DNA from: a virus
Lineage: Duplodnaviria; Caudoviricetes
Reading direction: 5' to 3' (one strand)
Length of the DNA stretch: 64,000 nt
IMG/VR virus record: IMGVR_UViG_3300021399_000106
Span: 32,001 to 96,000 of that record
Below, piece after piece: positions 5,584 to 23,835 of this stretch; positions within the stretch are counted from its first letter, which is position 1; every line of letters starts with the position of its first letter. Under the pieces are notes generated by a model. It searched no databases, was not told where the DNA came from, and saw only the letters and a program-made list of their open reading frames with translations. The position numbers were made by a program, and so were the translations under genes.

Positions 5584-5691
5584 GATTGAATATGCAATTA
5601 TAAAAAGCAGCCGTTCTGTAACCACGGTGCCTATACAGTATACTAGTTAATTAAAAGGCTTTGCAGGTGTAATTCCTGTCTTCAATCACCA
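5584..5691 (+). ncRNA. Atypical tRNA-like gene (GTA in enlarged loop, long variable arm)
   Basis: GATTGAA/TTCAATC acceptor + ACCA, T arm GCAGG-TGTAATT-CCTGT. Confidence 0.5.
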
Positions 5692-5813
5692 GGTTACGGT
5701 TTTAAGGACATAAACAAGCCACGGTTAGGAATGTCCTTTTTATTTTATAAAATATATAATTTTTTATATACTAATATTGTATATTTAAATATAAAATATA
5801 ATAGAAAGGAATT

Positions 5814-6125
5814 ATGTTTATGAATACATTGTTTGATGTTTATATGTTACAAGCAAAATTATACCATTGACTTGATGGAGAATATTATAATGTAGCAGTT
5901 GAAAATTATTTAGAAATAGAAAAAGCTGAATTAGAATATGACGATGAAAGAGCAACATTAAGTAATGTTAAATTTCATATTCGTTGAGGTAGATTCTATG
6001 ATAATAAAGAAAAAGAATATTTGAATGAAGAACATAAAACTATTATAGATATTGATATTAAATATTTAGAAAATTATGATTATATTTTAGGAATTTTTAC
6101 TGAATATGCTAAAAAGATAGGATAA
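5814..6125 (+). CDS. Hypothetical protein (2 in-frame TGA=Trp)
   Basis: GAAAGGA RBS; 103 aa when TGA is read through. Confidence 0.65.
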
Positions 6126-6183
6126 TATATTGTATAATATAAAGTAATTATTTCCCGGAGTGAGATTCTCCGTTGATATAGAT

Positions 6184-6259
6184 ACCGGCGTAGCTCAACT
6201 GGTAGAGTCGCGGTCTTCAAAACCGTTGGTTGTGGGTTCGAGTCCTACCGCCGGTACCA
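6184..6259 (+). tRNA. tRNA-Trp (TCA), opal-decoding
   Basis: Cloverleaf, loop CTTCAAA, short variable arm (not Sec), CCA end, upstream of trpS. Confidence 0.92.
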
Positions 6260-6328
6260 GTCAGTATAATGGTTTATGGATTCATTTCTATAAACCATTT
6301 TTATTTTATATAGGAAAGGAATTAAATT

Positions 6329-7315: not shown

Positions 7316-7531
7316 AATTAATTGTATAATATATTGTTAAAAATTAATAAATATTTAGTTAGATTCAAAGAAAATTATAATTTTATAAAAAAAGTTATTT
7401 TAGGTATTGATTTTTAGAAAAAAATATTGTATAATATATATGTAAAATAAAAATAATTAATTTTAGTAAAAACAGAGAAATTTGTTGTACTAAATTAGTT
7501 AAATAAAAAATTTGTTAAGGAGAACACAGTT

Positions 7532-7699
7532 ATGAAAACATTATTAAGTCTAATAAAATTACATAATCTTAATAGTCAATATCCGTTACAATCATACTGT
7601 GATTACTCTGAACAAATTACAGACAACGCTGTATTCACAAATAAACCATTTGGGTATGAAGCGAGAGAAAATAGCACACGAGGTTTTCCTAGAAGTTAA
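7532..7699 (+). CDS. Small ORF (55 aa) heading the tRNA array
   Basis: AAGGAG RBS, open frame, followed by terminator. Confidence 0.5.
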   Translation: MKTLLSLIKLHNLNSQYPLQSYCDYSEQITDNAVFTNKPFGYEARENSTRGFPRS

Positions 7700-7725
7700 C
7701 TGAAACTAATCTTTTAAAATAATTT

Positions 7726-7756
7726 AAGGACTAGCAAAGTTAGCTAGTCCTTTTTT
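7726..7756 (+). terminator. Intrinsic terminator
   Basis: AAGGACTAGC/GCTAGTCCTT hairpin + T tract. Confidence 0.8.
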
Positions 7757-7771
7757 ATTTGTTATTTATAT

Positions 7772-7847
7772 AGGTCTTTAGTTTAATAGGTAAAATGATA
7801 GTCTCCAAAACTATAAGATGTGAGTTCGAATCTTACAGGGCCTGCCA
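7772..7847 (+). tRNA. tRNA-Trp (CCA)
   Basis: Cloverleaf, loop CTCCAAA, G73, CCA. Confidence 0.92.
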
Positions 7848-7864
7848 TAAAATTAAATATAATA

Positions 7865-7964
7865 AAGACAGTTACAGCAATTCTAAATGCTAGACAAATG
7901 GATAAGTCAATTTCCTGCTAAGAAATCATTTTGGGTTCAAATCCCAAGCAAATAAAACTGTCTT
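7865..7964 (+). ncRNA. Handle RNA 1 carrying a tRNA(GCT)-like body
   Basis: AAGACAGTT-ACAGCAA...AACTGTCTT; D arm, loop CTGCTAA and T arm inside; no CCA. Confidence 0.75.
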
Positions 7965-7970
7965 GTATAT

Positions 7971-8046
7971 GGGGCATTAGCTCAGCTGGGAGAGCGTCTG
8001 TTTTGCACGCAGAAGGTCACCGGTTCGATCCCGGTACGCTCCACCA
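7971..8046 (+). tRNA. tRNA-Ala (TGC)
   Basis: Cloverleaf, CCA. Confidence 0.93.
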
Positions 8047-8203
8047 TATAGATTGTACCTGTTACTATAGAACAGTTATGATAAATATAAAGCGTTCATT
8101 TGATAAATGAAAGAAAGATAAAGTGGTGATTTATCTCCTTCCGATATACTGGTGGGATAGCTTATAAGCTAGTGTTAAGCCTAGGACAATTAACACTTAA
8201 AAT

Positions 8204-8279
<76 letters not shown>

Positions 8280-8302
8280 TAAAAATAAATATTTAAGATA
8301 TA

Positions 8303-8419
8303 AAGACTCATACTGCAATTATTCCATTCTAGGATTTTTAGCTCATTTGGTAGAGCGTCAAACTTGTAATTTGAAAGTAGCAGGTTCAAGTCCTGCAGAA
8401 TCTATGATAAACGAGTCTT
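8303..8419 (+). ncRNA. Handle RNA 2 carrying a tRNA-Thr(TGT)-like body
   Basis: AAGACTC-ATACTGCAA...GAGTCTT; cloverleaf at about 8331-8403 without CCA. Confidence 0.78.
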
Positions 8420-8425
8420 GTAAAT

Positions 8426-8502
8426 GGACATGTAGCTCAGTTGGTTAGAGCTCCCCGCTCATAACGGGGCGGTCCTAGGTTCGAGACCTAGCTTGTCCAC
8501 CA
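8426..8502 (+). tRNA. tRNA-Ile2/Met (CAT)
   Basis: Cloverleaf; GGAC acceptor resembles Firmicute Ile2. Confidence 0.88.
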
Positions 8503-8509
8503 GTTAAAT

Positions 8510-8585
8510 CGCCCCATCGACAAGCGGCCTAAGTCATTGGACTTTCTATCCAACATCGCCGGTTCGAATCCGGCTGGGGTGACCA
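8510..8585 (+). tRNA. tRNA-Glu (TTC)
   Basis: Cloverleaf, loop CTTTCTA (T37). Confidence 0.85.
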
Positions 8586-8589
8586 TAAT

Positions 8590-8667
8590 CGTCGCGTAGT
8601 GGAATTGGTTAACACACTTGCCTCTCAAGCAAGAGATTTACGAGTTCAAATCTCGTCGCGTCGACCA
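8590..8667 (+). tRNA. tRNA-Glu (CTC)
   Basis: Cloverleaf, loop CTCTCAA. Confidence 0.85.
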
Positions 8668-8672
8668 TAATT

Positions 8673-8748
8673 GTTCCCATAGGCTAATGGACTAGACCAC
8701 TAGGCTACGAACCTAGTAATGAGGGTTCGAATCCTTCTGGGAATGCCA
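8673..8748 (+). tRNA. tRNA-Arg (ACG)
   Basis: Cloverleaf, CCA. Confidence 0.92.
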
Positions 8749-8759
8749 TTTAAATATAT

Positions 8760-8836
8760 TGGCTGTTAGCTCAATTGGTTAGAGCATCGGACTGTTAATC
8801 CGGGGGTTGAGAGTTCAAGTCTCTCACAGCCAGCCA
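8760..8836 (+). tRNA. tRNA-Asn (GTT)
   Basis: Cloverleaf, CCA. Confidence 0.93.
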
Positions 8837-8838
8837 AT

Positions 8839-8913
8839 GCAGGTATAGTATAAAGGTTAGTATTTCAGTCTTCCAAACTGAGGATACGGTTTCGAGATCC
8901 GTTACCTGCTCCA
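8839..8913 (+). tRNA. tRNA-Gly (TCC)
   Basis: Cloverleaf, U73, CCA. Confidence 0.88.
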
Positions 8914-8986
8914 TAAAATTCTAAAGAAAGAGGTAATCGCTATGGAATCTGATTATAGCTATTATTACAACTTAATAATTAAATTT

Positions 8987-9071
8987 CGTGGCGTAGTTCG
9001 TTAAAGAGGCGAGGAAGTCCGTAAAACTTTCATCTTAGATCCGCTGAGAGCATTACTCAGAGCCACGACCA
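8987..9071 (+). ncRNA. Atypical tRNA-like gene (loop CCGTAAA)
   Basis: CGTGGC/GCCACG acceptor + ACCA; non-canonical T loop AGCATTA. Confidence 0.55.
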
Positions 9072-9075
9072 ATAT

Positions 9076-9165
9076 GGGTATGAGGCTACTGTCGGTTGCG
9101 TGGCGGCAGACTGTAAATCTGTTACATTGGAAACGTCGTAGGTTCGACTCCTACCATACCCACCA
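9076..9165 (+). tRNA. tRNA-Tyr (GTA)
   Basis: Loop CTGTAAA, long variable arm, CCA. Confidence 0.88.
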
Positions 9166-9168
9166 AAT

Positions 9169-9245
9169 GGACGCTTAGCTCAGCTGGGAGTAGCGCTTGC
9201 CTTACAAGCAAGAGGTCACAGGTTCGATCCCTGTAGCGTCCACCA
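9169..9245 (+). tRNA. tRNA-Val (TAC)
   Basis: Cloverleaf, CCA. Confidence 0.93.
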
Positions 9246-9330
9246 GCCGATTTTAAGACATAATTGCTTAAAGGTTGTTTGCCAGACTTTAGTAGTAACG
9301 GCATCGAATAAAAACTGGCATTTAATATTT

Positions 9331-9407
9331 CGGGATTTAGCTCAGCTTGGTAGAGCGCTTGGTTTGGGACCAAGATGTCGTAGGTTCGAATCCTATAATC
9401 CCGACCA
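9331..9407 (+). tRNA. tRNA-Pro (TGG)
   Basis: Cloverleaf, CCA. Confidence 0.95.
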
Positions 9408-9448
9408 AATAAGTTGTGGGTATAATAAGACTTGAAACCCTCATAAGT

Positions 9449-9524
9449 GGCCCGTTAGTTCAGCGGTTTAGAATCTTCGGCTGTCTCCCGAGGGACACGA
9501 GTTCGAATCTCGTACGGGTCGCCA
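9449..9524 (+). tRNA. tRNA-Asp (GTC)
   Basis: Cloverleaf, loop CTGTCTC (T37). Confidence 0.9.
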
Positions 9525-9528
9525 TAAT

Positions 9529-9621
9529 GGTCAGTTGGCAGAGTCTGGTTTATTGCACTGGTCTTGAAAACCAGCGACGGTGATGAGCCGTCCGTGGGTT
9601 CAAATCCTACACTGACCGCCA
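9529..9621 (+). tRNA. tRNA-Ser (TGA)
   Basis: Cloverleaf, long variable arm. Confidence 0.93.
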
Positions 9622-9639
9622 TTAATTAAAATTATATAT

Positions 9640-9768
9640 GCTCACGTTATAGTCACATCAATTTATGGATGGTTGCAAACTGAAATAAGGAGATGAGGAT
9701 GAATCTTGGAGATGGCCACCGAGATGAACGCAATACGGTATTAGGTGCAATTCCTTTTGTGGGTACCA
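9640..9768 (+). ncRNA. Atypical 129-nt tRNA-like gene
   Basis: GCTCACG/TGTGGGT acceptor + ACCA, T-arm-like AGGTGCAATTCCT; interior does not fit a cloverleaf. Confidence 0.45.
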
Positions 9769-9773
9769 TATAT

Positions 9774-9850
9774 CCAATAGTAGCTCAGTTGGTTAGAGCA
9801 CTCGGCTGATAACCGAGAGGTCGATTGTTCAAATCAATCCTATTGGACCA
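9774..9850 (+). tRNA. tRNA-Ile (GAT)
   Basis: Cloverleaf, CCA. Confidence 0.92.
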
Positions 9851-9856
9851 TAATAT

Positions 9857-9943
9857 GCTCCGGTGGTGGAACTGGTATACACGTTGGACTTAAAATCCAA
9901 TGCCTTTACAGGATTGAGGGTTCAAATCCCTCTCGGAGCACCA
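9857..9943 (+). tRNA. tRNA-Leu (TAA)
   Basis: Cloverleaf, long variable arm. Confidence 0.94.
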
Positions 9944-9952
9944 AATATAAAT

Positions 9953-10029
9953 GCTCGAGTTAGTTCAGTTGGTAGAACATCTGATTGTGGCTCAGAGGGT
10001 CAAGGGTTCGAGTCCCTTACTTGAGCCCA
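9953..10029 (+). tRNA. tRNA-His (GTG)
   Basis: Cloverleaf with G-1:C73. Confidence 0.93.
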
Positions 10030-10121
10030 TATAAAATATTAGAAAAAGGAGAACGACGTATATGAAACGAAAATGTAGATGTCGAAAGTGTTGTAGGAAA
10101 CAATTTAATAGATTTTTATAT

Positions 10122-10197
10122 GCGCCGTTAGCTTAACTGGTAGAGCTCTGGTCTCTTAAACCTGAGGTTATAGGTTCAAATCCTATACGGCGCACCA
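10122..10197 (+). tRNA. tRNA-Lys (CTT)
   Basis: Cloverleaf, loop CTCTTAA. Confidence 0.88.
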
Positions 10198-10203
10198 ATA
10201 GAT

Positions 10204-10279
10204 GTGCCTGTAGCTCAGATGGTAGAGCACTTGACTTTTAATCAAGGGGTCACGAGTTCGAACCTCGTCGGGCACACCA
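10204..10279 (+). tRNA. tRNA-Lys (TTT)
   Basis: Cloverleaf, loop CTTTTAA. Confidence 0.95.
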
Positions 10280-10284
10280 TGAAT

Positions 10285-10361
10285 GTGCCGTTAGCTCATT
10301 CGGATAGAGCAACCGCCTTCTAAGCGGTAGGTGATAGGTTCGAGTCCTATACGGCACGCCA
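10285..10361 (+). tRNA. tRNA-Arg (TCT)
   Basis: Cloverleaf, CCA. Confidence 0.94.
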
Positions 10362-10370
10362 TTATTTAAT

Positions 10371-10444
10371 GCGTCCGTAGCCAAGTGGTAAGGCAGGAGG
10401 CCGCAACCCTCTGATCACTGGTTCAAATCCAGTCGGATGCTCCA
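10371..10444 (+). tRNA. tRNA-Cys (GCA)
   Basis: Cloverleaf, U73; loop CCGCAAC (C33). Confidence 0.88.
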
Positions 10445-10448
10445 TTAT

Positions 10449-10525
10449 CTCCTAATAACCCAATCGGAAGAGGTAGTAAGCTCAAACCTTACAAAGTATT
10501 GGTTCAAATCCAATTTAGGAGACCA
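10449..10525 (+). tRNA. tRNA (CAA), Leu anticodon without long variable arm
   Basis: CTCCTAA/TTAGGAG acceptor, loop CTCAAAC, CCA. Confidence 0.75.
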
Positions 10526-10554
10526 TATATTGTATAATATTTAGATATAAAGTT

Positions 10555-10629
10555 GCCGCTTTAGTATAAAATCTATTACGATTGAATGGTAATCAATTGA
10601 AGGCGGAGAGTTACCGTCAAGCGGCACCA
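10555..10629 (+). tRNA. tRNA-Thr (GGT), atypical T loop
   Basis: Loop ATGGTAA; T loop AGAGTTA. Confidence 0.75.
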
Positions 10630-10635
10630 TTAAAT

Positions 10636-10711
10636 GCCACTCTAGCTCAGTAGGTAGAGCGTTGGCCTGAAGAGCCAAGCGTGGTAGGTTCGATTCCTAC
10701 GGGTGGCGCCA
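10636..10711 (+). tRNA. tRNA-Phe (GAA)
   Basis: Cloverleaf, CCA. Confidence 0.92.
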
Positions 10712-10714
10712 AAT

Positions 10715-10789
10715 GCGTGAGTAGTATAATGGTTAGTATATGTCCTTGCCAAGGATAAGGTGCGGGTTCAATTCCCGTCTCGCGCTCCA
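10715..10789 (+). tRNA. tRNA-Gly (GCC)
   Basis: Cloverleaf, CCA. Confidence 0.92.
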
Positions 10790-10816
10790 GAGTAGATTTG
10801 AAAGGAAGTAATTATT

Positions 10817-11233
10817 ATGAGTTTATATACTAGAGTATATGAAGATTTTATTAAAGCAAGAAAAGATAAAAATGAAGTAAATAAAAATATTTTAGGTTTA
10901 TTATATAATGCTTTAAAAAACAAAGCAATTGAATTAAGAGTTGATGAATTAACTGATGCTGATTCTAGTTCTGTAATTAAGAAAGTTTCTAAACAATTAG
11001 ATGAAGAAATTGAATGCAATGTAAAGGTTAATAGAACTGAAAAAGCAAATGAATTAACTTATCAAAAGAATTTAATTCAAGACTACTTACCAAAACAATT
11101 AAGTGAAGATGAAATTAAGACTATATTAAATACTCTAGAAGATAAAGCTATTCCTTCAGTAATGAAGTATTTTAAGACTAATTATAATGGTCTAGTAGAT
11201 ATGAGCTTAGTTAGTAAGCTCGCTAGACAATAA
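10817..11233 (+). CDS. GatB/YqeY domain protein
   Basis: YLPKQLSEDEI motif, size, tRNA-array context. Confidence 0.88.
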   Translation: MSLYTRVYEDFIKARKDKNEVNKNILGLLYNALKNKAIELRVDELTDADSSSVIKKVSKQLDEEIECNVKVNRTEKANELTYQKNLIQDYLPKQLSEDEIKTILNTLEDKAIPSVMKYFKTNYNGLVDMSLVSKLARQ

Positions 11234-11235
11234 TT

Positions 11236-11310
11236 GCCAGTTTAGCTCAGAGGAAGAGCAAACCGCTCATATCGGTTAGGTCGAGATATCGTAATTCTCA
11301 GCTGGTACCA
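11236..11310 (+). tRNA. tRNA-Met (CAT), atypical T loop
   Basis: Loop CTCATAT, CCA. Confidence 0.8.
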
Positions 11311-11315
11311 TATAT

Positions 11316-11400
11316 GCCGGTGTGGTGGAATTGGTAGACACCCTAGTCTTAGAAACTAGTGCTGAAAGGCGTGAGGGTTCAAGTCCCTCCACCGGTACCA
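11316..11400 (+). tRNA. tRNA-Leu (TAG)
   Basis: Cloverleaf, long variable arm. Confidence 0.94.
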
Positions 11401-11555
11401 TTTGATTATTCATTTATTAATAGTAAGCGCGGTAGTATTATTAATAAATTTATAATAGTTGCCATTTAGAAAAATGGAGCGTATGACACTGATTGCAAGG
11501 TGTGTAACGACTGATGAAATGTGGAGCCGACAGTATAAAAAAACTCCAACCATAT

Positions 11556-11630
11556 AGGACCGTAGCCAAGTGGTAAGGCAAGGGACTTTGACTCCCTCAT
11601 TCGAAGGTTCGAACCCTTCCGGTCCTGCCA
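11556..11630 (+). tRNA. tRNA-Gln (TTG)
   Basis: Cloverleaf, CCA. Confidence 0.94.
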
Positions 11631-11634
11631 AAAT

Positions 11635-11725
11635 GGTTGCTTACTCAAGAGGTCGAAGAGGGTGCACTGCTAACGCATTAGGAGTTTAATCGCTCGCGGG
11701 GGTTCAAATCCCTCAGCAACCGCCA
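11635..11725 (+). tRNA. tRNA-Ser (GCT)
   Basis: Cloverleaf, long variable arm. Confidence 0.92.
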
Positions 11726-11744
11726 TTTGAAAGGAATAATGTTT

Positions 11745-12284
11745 ATGAAAGATTTAGTAAAGGCTAGTAAGTATATTGCACTACTATTAAGGCATAAACC
11801 GGAAGAAGGAGATTTAAATCTCGACAAAGAAGGTTATTGTCCAACTGTTGATTTAATAAGAGCCTTAAAAAGAAAATTTAATTGGTTTACATTAAATGAT
11901 TTGTATGATATTGTAAATTCAGACGAAAAAGGTAGATATTCATTTAATGATAATAAAACCAAAATTAGGGCAAATCAAGGTCATTCAACAAATCAAGTAA
12001 ATATAACATTTAAAGAAGTAACACCTCCTGATATTTTATATCATGGAACAGCAACTAGATTTTTAAATGATATTTATAGAGAAGGTTTAAAACCGATGTC
12101 TAGACAATATGTTCATTTAAGTAAAGATATTGAAACTGCAACGAAAGTTGGTAGTAGACACGGAAATCTATATATTTTAGAAATTGATTGTAAGAAAATG
12201 GTTGAAGATGGATATAAATTTTATATTTCAGAAAACAATGTTTACTTAACAAAATTAGTTCCTAGAAAATATTTTAAAAATTAA
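11745..12284 (+). CDS. kptA: RNA 2'-phosphotransferase (Tpt1/KptA)
   Basis: LLRHKP, IRANQGHS, LYHGT, RQYVHLS and NNVYLT motifs. Confidence 0.95.
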   Translation: MKDLVKASKYIALLLRHKPEEGDLNLDKEGYCPTVDLIRALKRKFNWFTLNDLYDIVNSDEKGRYSFNDNKTKIRANQGHSTNQVNITFKEVTPPDILYHGTATRFLNDIYREGLKPMSRQYVHLSKDIETATKVGSRHGNLYILEIDCKKMVEDGYKFYISENNVYLTKLVPRKYFKN

Positions 12285-12347: not shown

Positions 12348-12408
12348 AGACACAGACAGCAAACAATTAATGCAATCAACTTTTAATTGATCAGGCAAAA
12401 ACGTGTCT
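12348..12408 (+). ncRNA. Handle RNA 3 carrying only a Lys(TTT) anticodon arm, in the leader of the DUF2828 gene
   Basis: AGACAC-AGACAGCAA...GTGTCT enclosing ATCAA-CTTTTAA-TTGAT. Confidence 0.75.
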
Positions 12409-12425: not shown

Positions 12426-14057
12426 ATGGATTTTTATGGAACAATGCAAAAGGTACAAAATAATGTATCAGTAACTGAAAATGGTATGGAAGGATACAAG
12501 ACAACTTTCCACCCATTACTAGATATGAATTTCAAGGTAACTTCATATCGTAAGCTTACAGATAGAGATATCTGTAATGATATTGACCAAATAATTTCTC
12601 AAGCAGAGGATGCTCAATATCTATTAAAATTCTTATTTATGGTAAGAGATGTTAGAGATGGTTTAGGAGAAAGAAGATTATTTAGAGTTGCATTAAAGCA
12701 TCTATTAAATACTGCTAATTTCGATAATAAGACTGAAATAATTTCAGACTTAATTAAAACTCAAATTTCTAATTTTGGTAGATTTGATGACTTATTTATT
12801 TTCGTAGGTACCCCTTATGAAAATATCTTAATTAAAACAATTAAGAATCAATTAAAGTCAGACTATGAGAATATGTTAGCTAATAAGAGCATTTCATTAT
12901 TAGCTAAGTGGATGCCATCTGAAAATGCTTCTTCAAAGGAAACTAAGAAGTTAGCAACAGCAATTAGAAAGGCATTAAATGCAGATTCTAAGACTTATAG
13001 AAAAACTTTATCAGCATTAAGAGCATATTTAAAGGTAACTGAAACTTATACTTCAGCTAATGAATGGGATAAGATTGATTATAATCAAGTTCCTTCTAAG
13101 GCAAACTTAAAGTATAAGGATGCATTCTTAAAGCATGATGAGGAAAGACGTAGAGATTACTTAGCTGCATTAAGAGTTGGTGTTGATAAGGAAGGTAATA
13201 AGGTTAAGATTAATTCTTCAGTTAACTTCCCACATGAAATTGTTGCTAAGTATACTAAGAAAAGCTACTGGAGCTTACAATTATCTGAATATGATGAAGC
13301 ATTAGAACAATTATGGAAGAATTTAAAGCAAAAAGATGGTTTAAATAACACAATCGTTGTTAGAGATGGTTCTGGTTCAATGACTTCAACAATTGGTAAT
13401 GGCGATACAACTGCATTAGATGTTTCAACAGCATTAGCAATTTATTGTTCAGAACATTTAAATTCAGGATTTAAGGATAAATTCTTAACATTCTCAAGTA
13501 GAGCTAAGTTAATTGATTTAAGTGCTGAAACTAATTTACATAACAAATTAAATAAGGTATTTAAAGAGGATGATTGCTCAAATACAAACATTGAAGATGT
13601 ATTCGATGTAATTTTAAATACAGCTGTTAATGGTAATGTTGCACCTGAGGATATGCCAGCACAAGTATTAATTATTTCAGATATGGAATTTGATGGTGCT
13701 TATGGTGGAAATAGATTCAATGGTACAAGCAACGTATTCAAGAAAGCAGCTACTAAGTATGCCAATGCAGGTTACAAGTTACCTAAATTAGTATTCTGGA
13801 ATGTATGCTCTAGAACAAATACTATCCCAGTAACACAAAATGAAAATGGTGTAGTATTAGTATCAGGATTCTCAGTTAATACCTTAAATATGGTATTAAA
13901 TGGAAAGACTTCACCTTGGTTATCATTAGTAGATGAATTAACTACAGAAAAGTATAATTCAATTCCATTATTAGCTAATGTAGTGAAGGCTAATGTAAAG
14001 GTAAATACTACTAAGAGAACCTCTAAGTCAAATAAGACACCTGATTTCTTAAAGTAA
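12426..14057 (+). CDS. DUF2828-family helical + vWA protein (Ro60/TROVE-like architecture)
   Basis: TENG, RDVRDGLGER, AKWMPSE, MIDAS DGSGSM, ISDMEFD, VFWN and VSGFS motifs. Confidence 0.85.
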   Translation: MDFYGTMQKVQNNVSVTENGMEGYKTTFHPLLDMNFKVTSYRKLTDRDICNDIDQIISQAEDAQYLLKFLFMVRDVRDGLGERRLFRVALKHLLNTANFDNKTEIISDLIKTQISNFGRFDDLFIFVGTPYENILIKTIKNQLKSDYENMLANKSISLLAKWMPSENASSKETKKLATAIRKALNADSKTYRKTLSALRAYLKVTETYTSANEWDKIDYNQVPSKANLKYKDAFLKHDEERRRDYLAALRVGVDKEGNKVKINSSVNFPHEIVAKYTKKSYWSLQLSEYDEALEQLWKNLKQKDGLNNTIVVRDGSGSMTSTIGNGDTTALDVSTALAIYCSEHLNSGFKDKFLTFSSRAKLIDLSAETNLHNKLNKVFKEDDCSNTNIEDVFDVILNTAVNGNVAPEDMPAQVLIISDMEFDGAYGGNRFNGTSNVFKKAATKYANAGYKLPKLVFWNVCSRTNTIPVTQNENGVVLVSGFSVNTLNMVLNGKTSPWLSLVDELTTEKYNSIPLLANVVKANVKVNTTKRTSKSNKTPDFLK

Positions 14058-14069
14058 AAAAATAAATAA

Positions 14070-14229
14070 AAGACACATACAGCGATATTTATATCATGCT
14101 TGAGGAGCCGCCGATGGAGGTATGAAATCCTCCCTTCCCGACCAAGAGCTATTAAGTTTAATTATTTAATAGTTGTTGCTCGGGAAGTAGCTTAATATTC
14201 ATAGAGCAGCGATTGATAAAACGTGTCTT
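14070..14229 (+). ncRNA. Handle RNA 4: circularly permuted tRNA-Pro-like
   Basis: AAGACAC-ATACAGCGA...GTGTCTT; T arm + CTTCCCG-ACCA precedes CGGGAAG + D arm. Confidence 0.8.
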
Positions 14230-14255
14230 GTTGACTTAAAAATAAATAACGGTAA

Positions 14256-14395
14256 AAGACATTTACTGCAATTCTAACGATTATCACATGTCAAGTGAGT
14301 GACGGTGGTTCGATTCCATCCTCCCCTGCCATTTATTATAATATATAGGGGAGTAGTTCAGTGGTAGAATGCTAAAAAATCAACCAAAATGTCTT
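14256..14395 (+). ncRNA. Handle RNA 5: circularly permuted tRNA-Asp(GTC)
   Basis: AAGACATTT-ACTGCAA...AAATGTCTT; anticodon arm, T arm, CTCCCCT-GCCA, linker, AGGGGAG + D arm. Confidence 0.85.
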
Positions 14396-14440
14396 GATTA
14401 CCTTTAAAATATAAATTTAATATAACATATATAAATAGAT

Positions 14441-14572
14441 TAGACACATACAGCAACTTTTAATCTTTTAGATTACTATAGGTTCAAATCCTATCTCAGC
14501 AACATTGCTAAGTGGCGAAAATGGTATACGCAAACTACTTAAAATAGTTATAATGAAAAAGAAACGTGTCTA
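14441..14572 (+). ncRNA. Handle RNA 6: circularly permuted tRNA-Leu(TAA)
   Basis: TAGACAC-ATACAGCAA...GTGTCTA; variable arm, T arm, loop-closed acceptor, D arm, anticodon arm. Confidence 0.83.
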
Positions 14573-14585
14573 GAAATTAAAATAG

Positions 14586-14617
14586 ATTGGTATTTTACTA
14601 GTAATACCAATTTTTTT
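14586..14617 (+). terminator. Intrinsic terminator after handle RNAs 4-6
   Basis: ATTGGTATT/AATACCAAT hairpin + T tract. Confidence 0.7.
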
Positions 14618-14647
14618 ATTGTATAATTTAATAGAAGAGGTGATATT

Positions 14648-14875
14648 ATGTTATTTTTAGAAACAAGTTCAGAATCTATGACATTATTTACAGCTTTAGT
14701 AATTGTGTTAGTAATAGCATTAGGAATAGTTGTATTATTAATTACATTAAAAACTAATCGATTATTTCCTTTTCATAAAATGCATAAAGAAGATGAAGAT
14801 AATTGTTATGATATGAATCTAAGAAAATCAAGTTCAGTAAAAAAGGATGAAAGAGGAAATAAATGGAAACATTAG
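14648..14875 (+). CDS. Small membrane protein
   Basis: GAGGTG RBS, one transmembrane segment. Confidence 0.6.
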   Translation: MLFLETSSESMTLFTALVIVLVIALGIVVLLITLKTNRLFPFHKMHKEDEDNCYDMNLRKSSSVKKDERGNKWKH

Positions 14876-16197
14876 CTAAGTTTAAAGAATTTGTTGATGA
14901 AATTCAACAAAATAATTCAAGAAATTATAAATTAGAAGTTTTAAAGAAATGATCCGATAATCCAATAATTCGTGTATATTTAGATTTTATTTATAATCCT
15001 TATAAGATTACTGGTATTTCAGAAAAGAAGTTATATAAGGAAATTTGAATGGAATCTGAAGAGATTACAAGTATGTATCAGCTTATGGATTATTTATTAA
15101 CTCATAATACCGGTAGAGATGAAGATATTTGTAAGGTTCAGCAATTCAAAGATTTATTAGATGTTGATTATTATGAATTATTTGATGCTATAATTACAAA
15201 ATCATTAACATTAGGTGTTGATGTATTAAGTATTAATAAATGTATGGGAAACTTCATTCCGCAATTTTCAGTCCAACTTGCCAATAAATATTTTGATAAA
15301 CCTGAAATTGTAGAAGGTAAATCATTTGCATTAACTAGAAAAATTGATGGATCCAGAATTATTGCTATTAAAGAAAATGGTGAAGTTACCTTCTATACTA
15401 GACAGGGACAATTATATGAGGGATTGGTTGATTTAGAAAAAGAAATGTTAGAAACTATGCCTGATAATATTTGTTTAGATGGTGAATTAACTATATTAGA
15501 TGCTAATGGTTTAAGTAGTAAAGACCAATATAAAGCGTGTATGAAAATTTCTAGAAAAGATGGAATTAAACATGGTTTAAAAATGTTAGTATTTGATTGT
15601 ATGAATGCGTCAGAATTTAAAAATCAATTCTGTAATAGACCATATAAGAGTAGAAGACAAATGCTAGTTCAAATTTTTAGAAATAATTTTGTTATGGATG
15701 GGGTTAACTATGATTCTGATTTAGCAAATCTAAACCATACTTATTTTGAAATGTTACCTATTTTATATGAAGGTGAAGATACACAACAAATAATGCCTAT
15801 TCTAAATAAAATGGTTGATAATGGCGAAGAAGGTATTATGATTAATATTTTAGACGCACCTTATGAGTTCCGTAGGACTCCGAATTTGTTGAAAGTCAAA
15901 AAAATGCAAGATTTAGATTTAGAGGTAATTGGTTATGAAGAAGGCTCTGGAAACTTTGCAGGAATGTTAGGTGCTTTATTAGTTAGATATAAACAAGGAA
16001 ATACTGTTAAAGTAGGTTCAGGATTGAATAAAGAATTAAGACAAGAAATTTGGAAAGATCCTGATTCATATATCGGTAAAATTATTTCAGTTCAATATTT
16101 TGAAGAAACAACAAATCAAAATGGTGGATTGAGTTTGAGATTTCCAGTCTTTTTAGAGTTTAGAAATCCAGCAGATAAAAACGTAGCAGATTTTTAG
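14863..16197 (+). CDS. ATP-dependent DNA ligase (2 in-frame TGA)
   Basis: KIDGSR, LDGEL, EEGIM, LLKVKK and SLRFPVF motifs; N-terminus restored by TGA=Trp. Confidence 0.93.
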
Positions 16198-18487: not shown

Positions 18488-18577
18488 TAGTTACACACAG
18501 CAATTTAATAATACAAATACATGAACAACATTTATATCATTGTTTGGATACGAAAGTAATTAGTAGGTTCGTAACTA
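18488..18577 (+). ncRNA. Handle RNA 7 (no clear tRNA cargo)
   Basis: TAGTTAC-ACACAGCAA...GTAACTA. Confidence 0.65.
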
Positions 18578-18710: not shown

Positions 18711-18794
18711 AGTCGCATACAGCAAAATAAAAAATCTTTTAAAAAGAAGACAAATAATACAATCAAAAAAATTATTTTGATAGTTATGGCGACT
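18711..18794 (+). ncRNA. Handle RNA 8 (AT-rich cargo)
   Basis: AGTCGC-ATACAGCAA...GCGACT. Confidence 0.65.
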
Positions 18795-18993
18795 GTGAAT
18801 GCCTATATATAAAAGACAATAGCGAAAGCGACTAGTAAATTTAAAGCATTGTTTAGTAGTATATAAGACTAGATCAGTCCTAAAATTTAATACCAATGTG
18901 CATAAGCACCTCAGTTATGTTATCATTGATATCAAATTAATTGGAAACAGGATTCCAAAATATGATATTATAATTAAAAGGAGAATTAGAAAT

Positions 18994-20062: not shown

Positions 20063-21193
20063 ATGGAATTAGCGTTATTAAAATTTATAAAAGAACATGA
20101 AAATTGGGAAGAATTATTAACTAGAGACCCATATAACCTAAAAATAAATAGAGATGGTAAATATATTATATTTAAATATAATCAATTATGTTCTGATTTT
20201 AATTTACCAGAAGTTCAAGAAGCCCGAGGTATAATTTTTAGAGAATCAGATTGGAAGTGTGTTTGTCACGCCTTCAATAAGTTTGGAAATTATGGTGAAT
20301 CATATTGCCCTGAAATAGATTGGTCAACTGCATCTGTTCAAGAAAAAGTTGATGGTTCATTAATGAAAGTTTGGTATGATGAATATTGGCATATATCAAC
20401 TAATGGTACTATAGATGCTTTTAAAGCACCATTAGAATGTGCTAATAAAGAAATAACTTCTTATGGAGAACTATTCTTATATTGTTTAAAAGAAAATAAA
20501 CCTTCATTTCCATTTCAAGATTTTATTTCATTTTTAGATAAAGAATATTGTTTTATGTTTGAAATGGTATCACCTTATAATAGGGTTGTTATTGAGTACC
20601 TTGAATCTAAGTTATATTATTTAGGATGTAGAAATATGAGCACTCATCAAGAGTATGGTTTTGCAGATTATTTTCATATTCCATTTGTTAATGGTTTGGG
20701 TAATATATTAAATATGCCAAAACTATATCCATTACATACCTTAAAAGAAGTTCAAGAAGCAGCAAATGCCTTACCTTGGAATGAAGAAGGTTATGTAGTA
20801 TGTGATGCTAATTTCAATAGAGTTAAGATTAAATCTCCAGAATATGTTTTAGCGCATCACGGAAGAACTAATGGTAATATTTCTATTTCAAGATTATTAG
20901 AAATAATTTTAAATAATGAGATAGATGAATTCTTAATTTATGCAGATGAATATAAAGATAAAATAAATAATTTAATTGCTGAAATGGAATTATTTAAAAC
21001 TCAAGTTAAATTAGAAATTATAAATCTAGCTCCAGCAAATTATACTTCAAGAAAAGAATATGCAGAAGTAGTTAAGAGATACCCAGCATATATGCAATAT
21101 TTCTTATTTAGATATAAAACTATTAATGAAGAATTTAAGAAAATAAATATTTCTGGTTGGAAAAAGATATTAAGTGCGAGAGGCATTATTTAA
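20063..21193 (+). CDS. T4 Rnl1-like RNA ligase
   Basis: EARGIIF, FNKFGN, EKVDGSL, FEMVSPYN, EEGYVV and RVKIKS motifs. Confidence 0.9.
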   Translation: MELALLKFIKEHENWEELLTRDPYNLKINRDGKYIIFKYNQLCSDFNLPEVQEARGIIFRESDWKCVCHAFNKFGNYGESYCPEIDWSTASVQEKVDGSLMKVWYDEYWHISTNGTIDAFKAPLECANKEITSYGELFLYCLKENKPSFPFQDFISFLDKEYCFMFEMVSPYNRVVIEYLESKLYYLGCRNMSTHQEYGFADYFHIPFVNGLGNILNMPKLYPLHTLKEVQEAANALPWNEEGYVVCDANFNRVKIKSPEYVLAHHGRTNGNISISRLLEIILNNEIDEFLIYADEYKDKINNLIAEMELFKTQVKLEIINLAPANYTSRKEYAEVVKRYPAYMQYFLFRYKTINEEFKKINISGWKKILSARGII

Positions 21194-22809: not shown

Positions 22810-23835
22810 ATGATAAAATTTATAATGTTAATTGGTTTACCAGGAAGTGGTAAATCTACCTACGCAAACAAATTAATAGATAATAATACCGTATGGTTAT
22901 CTTCTGATAAAATAAGAGAAGAAATTTATGGAACTGAAGAGGAACAAAAAAATCCAGCATTAGTTTTCTCAATTATGTTTGATAGAACAGTTGAAAATCT
23001 AAATAATAATAAGAATGTTATTTATGATGCTACAAATATTAATAGAAAACTTAGAAAAGATTTATTAGATAGATTAAAAAGAAAAGTAAATAATGTCTAT
23101 TATGAATGTGTGCTAGTATATACAAACTTAGAAGAATGTAAGAAAAGAAATTCAAAAAGAGATAGAAAAGTTCCTGAATCTATAATTGATAAAATGGTTA
23201 AAAATTTTGAAGTTCCTGTTAAAGGAGAAGGTTGGGATAATATTGAAGTTAATTATACAACTAAACCATCAGTACCTTATGATAAAGTTATTGATATTTT
23301 TGTAAGTAAAGAGCCTCATGATAATCCTCATCATAATATGGATATTGATTTACATATGTATGCTGCTTGGGATTATTATGTAACACATTATGAATATGGT
23401 ATAGATAATTATTTAAAATATGCCATCTTATTTCATGATATAGGTAAGAAATTCTGTAAAACATATTATAATAGAAGGAATGAATTATGTGAAAAGGCAC
23501 ATTATTACCAACATGCAAATGCTGGAGCATATTTCGCTTTTGATATAGATTTTTCTAATTATAATGACCCTTATTTTGATGGAATATATCAAGATAAAGA
23601 ATTTACAGAAAATGATAAATACAATATGATAATATTAATTAACTATCATATGAGACCTCTAGAAGCTTGGAAGGATTCTAAAAAATCTGAAAATAAAGAT
23701 AAACTAATTTTAGGTGATAAATTATTTAATTATCTTGAAATATTACATGATTGTGATAAGAATTCTGAAGAGGATGAAAAGTTTGTTAAATGGTTTCTTG
23801 AAAAAATGGTTAAGGTATATAGAGGTGAAAACTAA
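22810..23835 (+). CDS. Polynucleotide kinase (AAA_33) fused to HD phosphohydrolase
   Basis: GLPGSGKST, YDATN; HDNPHH...FHDIGK...YHM...HDCD. Confidence 0.88.
   Translation: MIKFIMLIGLPGSGKSTYANKLIDNNTVWLSSDKIREEIYGTEEEQKNPALVFSIMFDRTVENLNNNKNVIYDATNINRKLRKDLLDRLKRKVNNVYYECVLVYTNLEECKKRNSKRDRKVPESIIDKMVKNFEVPVKGEGWDNIEVNYTTKPSVPYDKVIDIFVSKEPHDNPHHNMDIDLHMYAAWDYYVTHYEYGIDNYLKYAILFHDIGKKFCKTYYNRRNELCEKAHYYQHANAGAYFAFDIDFSNYNDPYFDGIYQDKEFTENDKYNMIILINYHMRPLEAWKDSKKSENKDKLILGDKLFNYLEILHDCDKNSEEDEKFVKWFLEKMVKVYRGEN

What the first reader, a model, noticed from the sequence alone, without database searches (positions are those of the whole stretch)
14256..14395. Circularly permuted tRNA-Asp opened between the D arm and the anticodon arm
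Order is anticodon arm (TCAC-ATGTCAA-GTGA, GTC at 14290-14292), T arm, 3' acceptor CTCCCCT-G-CCA (14321-14331), a 15-nt AT linker, then 5' acceptor AGGGGAG (14347-14353) and D arm. The acceptor pairs perfectly and has G73, as in tRNA-Asp. Inference: removal of the linker by RNase P plus 3' trimming would give a two-piece, possibly chargeable tRNA mimic held together by the handle, similar to two-piece tmRNA.
Basis: partly seen in the sequence, partly recalled or inferred. Interest (0 to 1): 0.85.

Follow-up and report, generated by a model that had tools for sequence, protein, structure and literature searches.

The report
Ro-like protein's clamped tRNA-Asp mimic
This is a complete but circularly permuted tRNA-Asp look-alike clamped by a conserved RNA "handle", one of eight such RNAs around a phage gene for a Ro60-shaped protein. 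It most likely belongs to a widespread Y-RNA-like particle for which I found no description, and is probably not a working tRNA.

Summary
Window 14257-14394 carries, in order, an anticodon arm (GTC), a T arm, a 3' acceptor strand with G-CCA, a 15-nt AU linker, a 5' acceptor strand and a D arm. Re-ordered, ARAGORN calls it tRNA-Asp(gtc); 0 of 500 shuffles give a call.

It is not a lone oddity. It is one of eight same-strand RNAs in this phage closed by one handle: a covarying stem, then ACWGCRA, then a 3' G. Three of them follow a 543-aa DUF2828/vWA gene whose model matches Ro60 over its whole length (Z 12-16).

The same handle sits beside this gene family in 59 of 79 metagenomic phage loci (148 copies on the gene strand, 4 opposite) and in 8 of 9 sampled cultured phages. 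It matches no Rfam family. The layout (terminal stem, T arm, closed acceptor, D arm) is that of YrlA Y RNAs.

Orthologues of this element keep the tRNA shape, but not the GUC anticodon or the CCA-linker. A dedicated chargeable tRNA-Asp is therefore unlikely, although RNase P cutting of this copy is plausible.

Earlier notes of this scan describe the same system on at least 26 other genomes. I re-tested the main claims here.

Verdict: a new variant of the Ro/Y-RNA kind.

The parts
14257..14394 (+). U2, the finding: a handle-clamped, circularly permuted tRNA-Asp-like RNA of 138 nt, followed by the 3' tail TG at 14395-14396
14257..14264 (+). 5' strand of the closing stem (AGACATTT); it pairs with 14387-14394
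   Evidence: covariation of the stem
14265..14271 (+). Conserved unpaired handle motif ACTGCAA (family consensus ACAGCAA)
14283..14299 (+). Anticodon-like arm, loop ATGTCAA with GTC at 14290-14292
   Evidence: the loop shape is kept but the triplet varies in orthologues
14304..14320 (+). T arm GGTGG-TTCGATT-CCATC
   Evidence: covarying
14321..14331 (+). 3' acceptor strand CTCCCCT, discriminator G, encoded CCA
   Evidence: the same module is in L009 and L101/L105
14332..14346 (+). 15-nt AU linker closing the acceptor stem; it ends in U just before the 5' acceptor strand
   Evidence: it resembles the inter-tRNA spacers of the phage's tRNA array
14347..14371 (+). 5' acceptor strand AGGGGAG, then U8-A9, the D arm GTTC-AGTGGTA-GAAT and G26
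14387..14394 (+). 3' strand of the closing stem (AAATGTCT)
14071..14228 (+). U1: handle RNA with a non-canonical T arm and a 7-bp acceptor followed by A-CCA and a hairpin linker
   Evidence: orthologues lack the CCA
14442..14571 (+). U3: handle RNA with a T arm, an acceptor closed by the loop ACAT, a D arm and an extra hairpin
12348..12408 (+). Leader handle RNA holding only an anticodon-like stem-loop (loop CTTTTAA); it ends 17 nt before the start codon of the Ro-like gene
   Evidence: orthologues; 52 elements start in the 250 nt before the gene in 79 loci
12426..14057 (+). 543-aa DUF2828 + DUF7788 (vWA) protein with a Ro60-like fold
7866..7963 (+). Handle RNA enclosing the ARAGORN 'tRNA-Ser(gct)' call at 7884-7955; no CCA
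8304..8418 (+). Handle RNA enclosing an unpermuted tRNA-Thr(tgt)-like body at 8332-8404; no CCA
18489..18576 (+). Handle RNA with cargo that does not resemble tRNA
18711..18833 (+). Handle RNA with cargo that does not resemble tRNA; the closing strand is at 18789-18794 or 18828-18833
14586..14617 (+). 9-bp AU-rich hairpin followed by a T run: a likely terminator after the RNA array
   Evidence: read; the consensus scan found none because it demands 3 G-C pairs
11727..12284 (+). Tpt1/KptA RNA 2'-phosphotransferase gene
20063..21193 (+). T4 Rnl1-type RNA ligase gene
22810..23835 (+). P-loop kinase gene (AAA_33/KTI12-like), a candidate polynucleotide kinase

Best explanation
U2 is a small non-coding RNA of the Y-RNA type. 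Its two ends pair into a short stem. Next to that stem, on the 5' strand, lies an unpaired conserved motif (ACUGCAA here, ACAGCAA in the family), and a G follows the stem on the 3' side. This 'handle' is inferred to be the docking site for the Ro60-shaped DUF2828/vWA protein encoded just upstream (inferred, not shown). The rest of the RNA is a complete tRNA-Asp-derived body. It is joined to the handle at the junction of positions 26 and 27, and its acceptor ends are joined by a linker. The body keeps the nucleotides that build the tRNA elbow (U8, A14, G18-G19, a TTCGA T loop, C48), so it should fold into the L shape and be recognised by proteins that recognise tRNAs. The particle would therefore present a tRNA look-alike on a Ro-like ring. 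By analogy with Ro60/YrlA, this would tether or gate the ring, or engage tRNA-directed enzymes of the host (inferred). In this phage the acceptor junction (G73-CCA, AU spacer, U at -1, 7-bp stem) looks like any tRNA junction of the phage's own array. It is therefore probably nicked by RNase P and trimmed to CCA, giving a two-piece RNA as in M. smegmatis YrlA (about even odds). Relatives show that an open acceptor end and an Asp anticodon are not needed for the family's function.
For: Anatomy and the re-ordering test.
Eight handle copies lie on the + strand within 11 kb around the gene. The 5' motif occurs 9 times in the window against 0.69 expected.
Positions that were not used in the search are conserved over 239 elements: A14 and A15 at 86-89% and the 3' G at 80%.
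The protein has DUF2828 and DUF7788 domains with an invariant DxSGS...T...D MIDAS motif. In its AF2 model the top ten structural matches are all Ro60 over both domains: Foldseek E 1e-9 to 1e-5; VIA Z 12.2-15.6 with 392-422 residues aligned. Matches that cover only the vWA domain score Z 10.3 or less.
Association: in 79 IMG/VR loci there are 148 handles on the gene strand and 4 opposite. They cluster just before and just after the gene, and 59 of 79 loci have at least one. Handles also lie next to the gene in 8 of 9 cultured phages from Mycobacterium, Salmonella, Listeria, Enterococcus, Campylobacter, Vibrio, Bacillus and Fusobacterium hosts.
Shared layout with covariation (terminal stem, T arm, closed acceptor, D arm). 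There is a weak local match to the Rfam YrlA model exactly over T arm, acceptor hairpin and D arm.
Precedents: YrlA mimics tRNA, M. smegmatis YrlA is cut by RNase P and gains CCA (PMC4201824), and a phage Ro60 binds Y-like RNAs encoded beside its gene (PMC12135203).
Genuine tRNAs of this phage all carry an encoded CCA, whereas the two handle-clamped tRNA calls do not.
Against: The protein does not match the Pfam TROVE model, and a sequence profile reaches PDB TROVE chains only at E 1.6.
The handle lacks the GNCGAA motif of YrlA, and the Rfam YrlA score is 21.6 bits against a cut-off of 69.
Dictyostelid Class I RNAs carry the same ACAGCAA design and are reported to bind an RRM protein directly (PMC7919456). 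The motif could therefore be read by a protein other than the Ro-like one.
The elements used for the covariation count were picked partly by their pairing, which inflates the figures for the handle stem.
Confidence: 0.6

Rival explanations
1. One reading: U2 is processed by RNase P and 3' trimming into a two-piece RNA that AspRS charges, and it acts as a chargeable tRNA-Asp mimic, comparable to two-piece tmRNA.
For: U2 has a 7-bp acceptor, G73, an encoded CCA, a 15-nt AU linker ending in U, a GUC anticodon, G10 and an Asp-type D arm close to the phage's own tRNA-Asp. The junction has the same form as normal junctions of the tRNA array. The acceptor-GCCA-linker module recurs in L009 and L101/L105. 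M. smegmatis YrlA is cut and receives CCA. There are weak local Rfam hits to permuted tmRNA models over the same stretch.
Against: Orthologues from the closest relatives (L098, L110, L111) close the acceptor with 3-4 nt and have no CCA. The anticodon triplet varies (GUC, GAA, GCA, UGU) and never co-occurs with the open CCA end outside this phage. Most permuted relatives close the acceptor with short loops such as GCAA, CGAAG or ACAT. Position 38 is A, not C. The phage has a normal tRNA-Asp(GTC) at 9449-9524. The tmRNA scores are far below the cut-offs (15.9 against 84, 14.7 against 47), and ARAGORN finds no tmRNA or tag.
Confidence: 0.12
2. The handle is mainly a cis-acting signal, not a docking site for the Ro-like protein. 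It could be a processing or stability signal for the tRNA-rich transcripts, or a site read by a host factor. The enclosed tRNA-like bodies would then be cargo or by-products.
For: Handles occur inside the tRNA array and around whole tRNA bodies (7866-7963 and 8304-8418). One sits directly in front of the ribosome-binding site of the Ro-like gene here, and 52 elements start in the last 250 nt before the gene in 79 loci. Class I RNAs with the same motif bind an RRM protein.
Against: The tight linkage in strand and position to one protein family, across phages of unrelated hosts and GC contents, is hard to explain through a host factor. The cargo keeps covarying tRNA helices and the tRNA core nucleotides, so it is under selection itself.
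Confidence: 0.15
3. U2 is a true permuted tRNA gene of the Cyanidioschyzon type. The ends of the precursor are cut and ligated into a circle, the linker is then removed, and a normal linear tRNA-Asp used in translation results.
For: The 3' half lies before the 5' half with an intervening linker. Tpt1, an Rnl1-type RNA ligase and a kinase are encoded nearby.
Against: The terminal stem is a plain 8-9-bp helix with a conserved 5' bulge motif, not a bulge-helix-bulge. Many relatives close the acceptor with tetraloops and could never yield free acceptor ends. The same handle encloses hairpins and unpermuted tRNA bodies. The anticodon is not conserved.
Confidence: 0.03
4. U2 is a functionless relic of a rearranged tandem tRNA-Asp duplication.
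For: The CCA-spacer-acceptor junction is what two tandem tRNA copies would leave behind.
Against: Orthologues keep the length and show compensatory changes in the T, D, acceptor and handle helices. The handle motif is conserved across distant phages.
Confidence: 0.03

Closest known systems
YrlA-type bacterial and phage Y RNAs with Ro60/Rsr (Rfam RF02553; Chen et al. 2014, PMC4201824), especially M. smegmatis YrlA
   Same: The 5' and 3' ends pair into a stem with a conserved motif on the 5' strand. The interior is a tRNA mimic in the order T arm, closed acceptor-like stem, D arm. The RNA is encoded within a few kb of, and on the same strand as, a ring-shaped HEAT/vWA protein, often in several copies. 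M. smegmatis YrlA has a 7-bp acceptor, is cut by RNase P and gains CCA, which is the fate proposed for U2.
   Different: The motif is ACAGCAA, not GNCGAAN0-1G. The Rfam score is 21.6 bits against a cut-off of 69. The partner protein belongs to Pfam DUF2828/DUF7788 and does not match the TROVE model. U2 also keeps a full anticodon arm and an encoded CCA. In this family the handle also carries bare anticodon-like hairpins, unpermuted tRNA bodies and cargo that does not resemble tRNA.
Circularly permuted tRNA genes of Cyanidioschyzon merolae, some green algae and Thermofilum
   Same: The 3' half of the tRNA is encoded before the 5' half, with the acceptor ends joined by a short intervening sequence.
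   Different: Those genes mature through a bulge-helix-bulge cut and a circular intermediate into ordinary tRNAs. Here the ends form a conserved protein-type handle, relatives have acceptor stems that cannot be opened, and the anticodon drifts.
Two-piece (permuted) tmRNA
   Same: The gene order is T arm, 3' acceptor strand with CCA, spacer, 5' acceptor strand. Weak local Rfam hits cover this stretch.
   Different: There is no tag reading frame and no pseudoknots. U2 has a normal D stem and an anticodon arm. The scores are far below the cut-offs, and ARAGORN calls no tmRNA.
Class I RNAs of dictyostelid social amoebae (Kjellin et al. 2021, PMC7919456)
   Same: They have the same handle design: a short covarying stem joining the 5' and 3' ends, then the motif CCTTACAGCAA next to the 5' strand, a variable interior, and a 3' end of the form stem-TG. 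An example is GTTGAC-CTT-ACAGCAA...GTCAAC-TG, from that paper's supplementary files.
   Different: Class I RNAs are 42-65 nt long, eukaryotic, driven by their own DUSE promoter, carry no tRNA-like body, and are reported to bind the RRM protein Rnp1A. Whether dictyostelids pair them with a DUF2828 protein was not tested here.
Thermus phage phiLo Ro60 with Yrl1/Yrl2 (PMC12135203)
   Same: A phage-encoded Ro60-fold protein has Y-like RNAs encoded beside its gene. It is the best structural match to the window's protein (9kop, Z 15.6).
   Different: phiLo Ro60 is a recognised TROVE protein and its RNAs carry the CGAA motif.

Membership tests
Canonical decoding tRNA-Asp | Cloverleaf in 5'-to-3' order that tRNA finders can detect | tested here: not met
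   ARAGORN and Rfam call nothing at 14240-14410 in native order.
Canonical decoding tRNA-Asp | All four arms and the core tertiary nucleotides present | tested here: met
   The re-ordered sequence gives an ARAGORN tRNA-Asp(gtc) cloverleaf, against 0 of 500 shuffles. U8, A14, G18-G19, the TTCGA T loop and C48 are present.
Canonical decoding tRNA-Asp | Anticodon conserved among orthologues | tested here: not met
   The triplet reads GUC, GAA, GCA or UGU in orthologous elements.
Canonical decoding tRNA-Asp | Free 5' end and free 3' CCA end; aminoacylation | not testable with these tools
   This needs RNA-end mapping and charging assays.
Permuted tRNA gene (Cyanidioschyzon type) | 3' half upstream of the 5' half, joined by an intervening sequence | tested here: met
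Permuted tRNA gene (Cyanidioschyzon type) | Bulge-helix-bulge motif formed by the ends of the precursor | tested here: not met
   The ends form a continuous 8-9-bp helix followed by the unpaired ACUGCAA motif. There is no pair of 3-nt bulges around a 4-bp helix.
Permuted tRNA gene (Cyanidioschyzon type) | Circular RNA intermediate and a mature linear tRNA | not testable with these tools
   No reads were available.
YrlA / Y RNA (RF02553) | Terminal stem enclosing T arm, closed acceptor-like stem and D arm | tested here: met
YrlA / Y RNA (RF02553) | Score at or above the Rfam gathering cut-off | tested here: not met
   21.6 bits against 69, and only model positions 27-81 are matched.
YrlA / Y RNA (RF02553) | GNCGAAN0-1G motif near the 5' end | tested here: not met
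   The conserved motif is ACWGCRA. The definition is taken from PMC4201824.
YrlA / Y RNA (RF02553) | Encoded within 4 kb of, and on the same strand as, a Ro60 orthologue | tested here: inconclusive
   U2 lies 200 nt downstream of a protein with a Ro60 fold. That protein is DUF2828, not Pfam TROVE.
YrlA / Y RNA (RF02553) | Bound by the Ro60 protein | not testable with these tools
   This needs immunoprecipitation or gel-shift assays.
ACAGCAA-handle RNAs beside DUF2828 genes (working definition; I found no published family) | Closing stem of at least 6 bp, 1-3 nt, ACNGCRA, and a G within 2 nt after the 3' strand | tested here: met
   AGACATTT / ACTGCAA ... AAATGTCT-TG.
ACAGCAA-handle RNAs beside DUF2828 genes (working definition; I found no published family) | Same strand as a DUF2828/vWA gene and within a few kb of it | tested here: met
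   The gene ends at 14057 and U2 starts at 14257. Across loci the count is 148 on the gene strand against 4 opposite.
Two-piece tmRNA | Match to a tmRNA model; tag reading frame | tested here: not met
   15.9 bits against 84 and 14.7 against 47. ARAGORN finds no tmRNA in the window.
Dictyostelid Class I RNA | Short 5'-3' stem, the motif CCUUACAGCAA beside the 5' strand, and a 3' end of stem plus UG | tested here: inconclusive
   The handle of U2 (stem, UU, ACUGCAA ... stem, UG) has the same design with one base changed, and its siblings carry ACAGCAA. U2 is 138 nt long, not 42-65, and its setting is a phage.
Ro60 / TROVE protein (for the neighbouring gene) | Ring of HEAT-like repeats plus a vWA domain with a MIDAS motif | tested here: met
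   The top ten structural matches are Ro60 over residues 10-514 at Z 12.2-15.6. The DxSGS, T and D residues are invariant in 22 homologues.
Ro60 / TROVE protein (for the neighbouring gene) | Match to Pfam TROVE (PF05731) | tested here: not met
   No hit in the protein scan or in the whole phage record. The profile against PDB TROVE chains reaches only E 1.6.

The most novel reading that the evidence does not exclude
Phages of many hosts carry a Ro-like ribonucleoprotein for which I found no description. Its RNAs use one handle (stem plus ACAGCAA) to display tRNA parts: whole permuted tRNAs such as U2, unpermuted tRNA bodies without CCA, or bare anticodon stem-loops such as the Lys-type CUUUUAA loop in the gene's leader. 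The fast-changing 'anticodons' on a conserved tRNA shape would fit decoys or sensors for host tRNA-cutting defence nucleases, working with the phage's own repair enzymes (Tpt1, Rnl1-type ligase, kinase). The same handle defines the unexplained Class I RNAs of social amoebae, so the particle could be an ancient RNP shared by viruses and eukaryotes.
Probability: 0.25. Interest if true: 0.85.

Novelty: new variant of a known kind. Interest (0 to 1): 0.7.

Why it matters
The purpose of tRNA mimicry in YrlA RNAs is still not established (my reading of the field; the 2014 paper leaves it open), and the Class I RNAs of Dictyostelium are still called unexplained in the 2021 paper. This locus belongs to a third, much larger set that shares features with both. 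A protein with the Ro60 fold occurs in at least 710 cultured phage genomes, among them Felix O1-like, Listeria, Enterococcus, Campylobacter, Vibrio and cluster L mycobacteriophages. In 8 of 9 sampled, RNAs with one simple handle lie beside its gene. Because such phages and their hosts are easy to handle, binding, processing and knock-out tests can be done directly. U2 is the most tRNA-like member seen here: it has all four arms, G73 and CCA. That makes it a good substrate for asking whether such mimics are cut by RNase P, modified, charged, or attacked by anticodon nucleases.

Tried and rejected
- BLASTN of window 13000-15500 against cultured phages found nothing. The relatives are too distant at the DNA level.
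- Rfam scans at permissive E-values gave no family for the handle over U1-U3, over the leader element, or over three cultured-phage loci. YrlA 'hits' elsewhere in the phage are only T arm/D arm pairs of neighbouring tRNAs.
- A loose handle pattern without the leading AG is no more common than in shuffles, 50 against 45. Only the strict form was used afterwards.
- The promoter/terminator scan was uninformative in this 27% GC DNA.
- phmmer against PDB found nothing. The profile search gave TROVE only at E 1.6.
- Literature: 'DUF2828' gives only unrelated plant and tardigrade papers. 'Permuted tRNA' plus phage gives nothing relevant. 'Ro-like' phage papers mention the protein but no RNAs. The 2004 paper on Dictyostelium non-coding RNAs that first identified Class I RNAs is not held; the motif letters came from the 2021 paper's supplement.
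- The Atlas search returned only DUF2828 clusters from viruses and Bacillota and did not show whether amoebae have the protein.
- The ATP-dependent ligase at 15049-16197 matches the DNA-ligase domains far better than the RNA-ligase model, whose score is below its cut-off. I do not count it as an RNA-repair gene.
Full report
THE OBSERVATION

The window comes from a 166.5-kb, 27% GC phage record of IMG/VR. It carries an array of 32 ARAGORN tRNA calls at 5478-11725.

- an anticodon-like arm with loop ATGTCAA and GTC at 14290-14292;
- a variable region GTGAC;
- a T arm GGTGG-TTCGATT-CCATC at 14304-14320;
- CTCCCCT-G-CCA at 14321-14331;
- a 15-nt AU linker;
- AGGGGAG at 14347-14353;
- TA and a D arm GTTC-AGTGGTA-GAAT.

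The whole element is closed by AGACATTT (14257-14264) pairing with AAATGTCT (14387-14394).

No tRNA is called in the native order. Joining 14347-14371 to 14282-14331 gives an ARAGORN cloverleaf tRNA-Asp(gtc). None of 500 shuffles of those letters gives a call.

IT IS ONE OF A FAMILY

The flanks of the element are not arbitrary. The pattern AG-N6-ACWGCRA occurs nine times in the window, always on the + strand, against 0.69 expected. Eight of the nine are followed within 350 nt by the reverse complement of their first six bases. The eight lie at 7866, 8304, 12348, 14071, 14257, 14442, 18489 and 18711. The four variable stem bases differ among copies (ACAG, ACTC, ACAC, ACAT, TTAC, TCGC), and the 3' strand changes to match each. 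No further copy exists in the rest of the phage record.

Three copies (U1 14071-14228, U2 the finding, U3 14442-14571) stand in a row. They begin 14 nt after the stop codon of a 543-aa gene. An AU-rich hairpin with a T run follows them at 14586-14617. A 61-nt copy at 12348-12408 lies in the leader of that gene.

Two copies enclose ARAGORN tRNA calls: 'Ser' at 7884-7955 and 'Thr' at 8332-8404. These are the only two of the 32 calls that lack an encoded CCA.

THE NEIGHBOURING PROTEIN

The 543-aa product matches Pfam DUF2828 and DUF7788, not TROVE. I built an AlphaFold2 model from 22 homologues (mean pLDDT 78, pTM 0.72).

Its best matches among solved structures are all Ro60 over the whole length: Thermus phage phiLo Ro60, D. 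radiodurans Rsr, and Xenopus and human Ro60.
- Foldseek gives E 1e-9 to 1e-5.
- VIA-align gives Z 12.2-15.6 with 392-422 aligned residues.
- Matches that cover only the vWA domain reach Z 10.3 at most.
- The MIDAS residues DxSGS, T and D are invariant.

The protein is thus Ro60-like in fold and outside the TROVE family by sequence. Annotators of mycobacteriophages already call homologues 'Ro-like RNA binding protein'.

THE PAIRING RECURS

The protein family is large: about 7,900 of 8,000 scored candidates reach E 1e-5 or better.

In 79 IMG/VR loci centred on the gene, the strict handle pattern occurs 148 times on the gene's strand and 4 times on the other. Peaks lie in the 250 nt before the start codon (52 elements) and just after the stop (17). 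Fifty-nine loci have at least one.

Over 239 distinct elements, positions that I had not required are conserved: A at both positions after GC (86% and 89%), and G two bases after the stem (80%).

tblastn finds the protein in 710 cultured phage records. I read nine of these loci. Eight have handle elements beside the gene and on its strand:
- Mycobacterium phage Rumpelstiltskin (three elements after the gene);
- Felix O1-like UAB_Phi87;
- Listeria LMTA-57 (three before the gene);
- Enterococcus iF6 (four);
- Campylobacter CP8 (two);
- Vibrio nt-1;
- Bacillus 2S-4 (four);
- Fusobacterium phiKSUM.
Serratia BF had none.

No Rfam family matches any of them.

WHAT THE HANDLE CARRIES

Of 161 distinct strict elements, most are 40-80 nt long and hold a plain hairpin. 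Forty-one have a T arm.

One recurrent design is U2's own: handle, a short hairpin with a 7-nt anticodon-like loop, a variable region, a T arm, an acceptor stem closed by a loop, the dinucleotide TA, a D arm with GG in its loop, then the handle again.

In an alignment of 14 such elements, RNAalifold recovers the handle stem, the T arm and the acceptor stem, and 16 of 19 pairs show compensatory changes. Counted against controls, 93.5% of cells pair, no shuffle out of 500 reaches the observed values, and slid partners give 36-50%. The elements were chosen partly by pairing, so the handle figures are flattered. The acceptor stem was picked by eye, not imposed by a pairing filter.

Other designs put the handle where the acceptor stem would be, around an unpermuted D-anticodon-T body. 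Some nest one handle element inside the acceptor loop of another.

The order terminal stem, T arm, closed acceptor, D arm is the layout of YrlA. Rfam's YrlA model matches U2 locally over exactly those parts, far below its cut-off.

WHAT IS AND IS NOT CONSERVED IN U2

Orthologues sit at the same place in relatives whose neighbouring protein is 70-83% identical. All keep the handle, the sequence after it (ATTCTA...), the T arm, the D arm (with compensatory changes) and a 7-nt loop with U at position 33 and a purine at 37. Three things vary.

1. The 'anticodon'. It reads GUC in the window and in L098/L111, GAA in L110, GCA in L009, and UGU in L100, L103 and L112.

2. The acceptor end.
- L098, L110 and L111, the closest relatives, have a 5-6-bp acceptor closed by 3-4 nt, with no CCA.
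- L100, L103 and L112 close 7 bp with a 5-6-nt loop (CGAAG, CGAAGG, CAGAG).
- Only the window, L009 and (inside a U1-like body) L101/L105 carry CTCCCCT-GCCA, a 13-15-nt AU spacer and AGGGGAG.

3. Only the window combines GUC with an open-type end.

Among about 21 permuted elements, five have N-CCA directly after a 7-bp acceptor. That is more than chance, and it is what capture of tRNA gene junctions would leave behind.

U1 shows the same pattern. It has A-CCA here, ACA in L100, and a 5-nt closing loop in L110.

HOW IT MOST LIKELY WORKS

Shown by the data:
- the anatomy;
- the covariation;
- the conserved motif;
- the Ro60 fold of the neighbouring protein;
- the linkage in strand and position across very distant phages.

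Inferred:
- The handle is the binding site of the Ro-like protein. This follows the way the stems of Y RNAs bind Ro60, and the way phiLo Ro60 binds the Y-like RNAs encoded beside its gene (PMC12135203).
- The tRNA-shaped body is recognised by tRNA-directed proteins. YrlA is modified by DusA and TruB, and M. smegmatis YrlA is cut by RNase P and receives CCA (PMC4201824).

For U2 in particular, the junction (G73-CCA, AU spacer, U at -1, 7-bp stem) has the same form as the junctions between the phage's genuine tRNAs. I give about even odds that it is nicked and trimmed, leaving a two-piece RNA held together by the handle and the acceptor stem.

The comparative data argue against charging by AspRS as the purpose. 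What the particle does is open. The setting is a tRNA array with Tpt1 (11727-12284), an Rnl1-type RNA ligase (20063-21193) and a P-loop kinase (22810-23835). Together with the rapidly changing anticodon triplets and the Lys-type CUUUUAA loop of the leader element (conserved with compensatory stem changes in L100, L102 and L106), this makes a role against host tRNA-cutting defences attractive. That role is untested.

RIVALS

- A chargeable two-piece tRNA-Asp (0.12), for the reasons above.
- A handle that is mainly a processing or regulatory signal, or is read by another protein (0.15). Class I RNAs with the same motif are reported to bind an RRM protein.
- A true permuted tRNA that matures through a circle (0.03). 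There is no bulge-helix-bulge, and many relatives have acceptors that cannot be opened.
- A dead relic (0.03). Compensatory changes speak against it.

COMPARISON WITH WHAT IS KNOWN

U2 works like a YrlA Y RNA, but it fails YrlA's defining tests: the GNCGAA motif, the Rfam score and a TROVE partner. It is a permuted tRNA in gene order only. It is not a tmRNA.

Its handle has the design of dictyostelid Class I RNAs: a stem, then CCTTACAGCAA, a variable interior, then the stem and TG. That paper states that no Class I RNAs were found outside Dictyostelia.

I found no paper that describes handle RNAs beside DUF2828 genes.

PRIOR NOTES OF THIS SCAN

First-reader notes on this genome list the eight elements and the repair genes. 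Follow-up reports describe the same system on at least 26 other genomes. These are unchecked AI notes.

I re-derived the following here: the element list, the statistics, the protein fold, the association, the sample of cultured phages and the Class I likeness.

VERDICT

The best reading is a Y-RNA-like tRNA mimic of a Ro-like phage ribonucleoprotein, a new variant of a known kind.

Noticed in passing
window 7884-7955 and 8332-8404: The only two of 32 ARAGORN tRNA calls without an encoded CCA are the two that lie inside handle elements (7866-7963 and 8304-8418). In the orthologue L009:8404-8518 the Thr-like anticodon UGU reads UCU. These are probably not decoding tRNAs, and annotation pipelines would miscount them.
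   Followed up: partly
window 12348-12408: The leader handle RNA holds only a 5-bp stem with the loop CUUUUAA, the shape of a tRNA-Lys(UUU) anticodon loop, and ends 17 nt before the start codon of the Ro-like gene. Orthologues keep the loop with a compensated stem (AUCAA/UUGAU against UUUGA/UCAAA). Some show other loops instead (CUGUUAA, CUCCAAC, AUGGUAC). It may be an autoregulatory site or an anticodon-loop mimic.
   Followed up: partly
L078:2391-2815: Two tandem handle units have acceptor strands that are complementary across units, not within them. Each also has a second handle element nested in its acceptor loop. The MFE fold pairs them as a domain-swapped double tRNA mimic.
   Followed up: partly
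L109:946-1497 (Listeria phage LMTA-57): A ROOL RNA match (88.5 bits, just under the cut-off of 99.1) lies about 1 kb upstream of the DUF2828 gene and its three handle RNAs.
   Followed up: no
window 6184-6259: ARAGORN labels this tRNA 'SeC', anticodon TCA. It is an opal-reading tRNA outside the main array, with an encoded CCA.
   Followed up: no
window 18489-18576 and 18711-18833: Two further handle elements carry AU-rich cargo without any tRNA features, about 4.5 kb downstream of the Ro-like gene. The second has two possible closing strands.
   Followed up: no
window 14648-14875: A 75-aa hydrophobic open reading frame lies between the RNA array and the ligase gene. A 75-aa gene is called at the same place in four relatives (L100, L102, L103, L112). 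It has no Pfam match.
   Followed up: no
window 12949-12963: A ninth copy of the 5' handle motif (AGTTAGCAACAGCAA) lies inside the coding sequence of the Ro-like gene. It has no exact closing strand, only wobble-containing partners 218-279 nt away, and is probably a chance match.
   Followed up: partly
L101:4145-4272 and L105:4157-4284: The acceptor-GCCA-linker module of U2 appears almost unchanged inside an RNA whose handle and 5' part resemble U1. This suggests that modules are exchanged between handle RNAs.
   Followed up: partly
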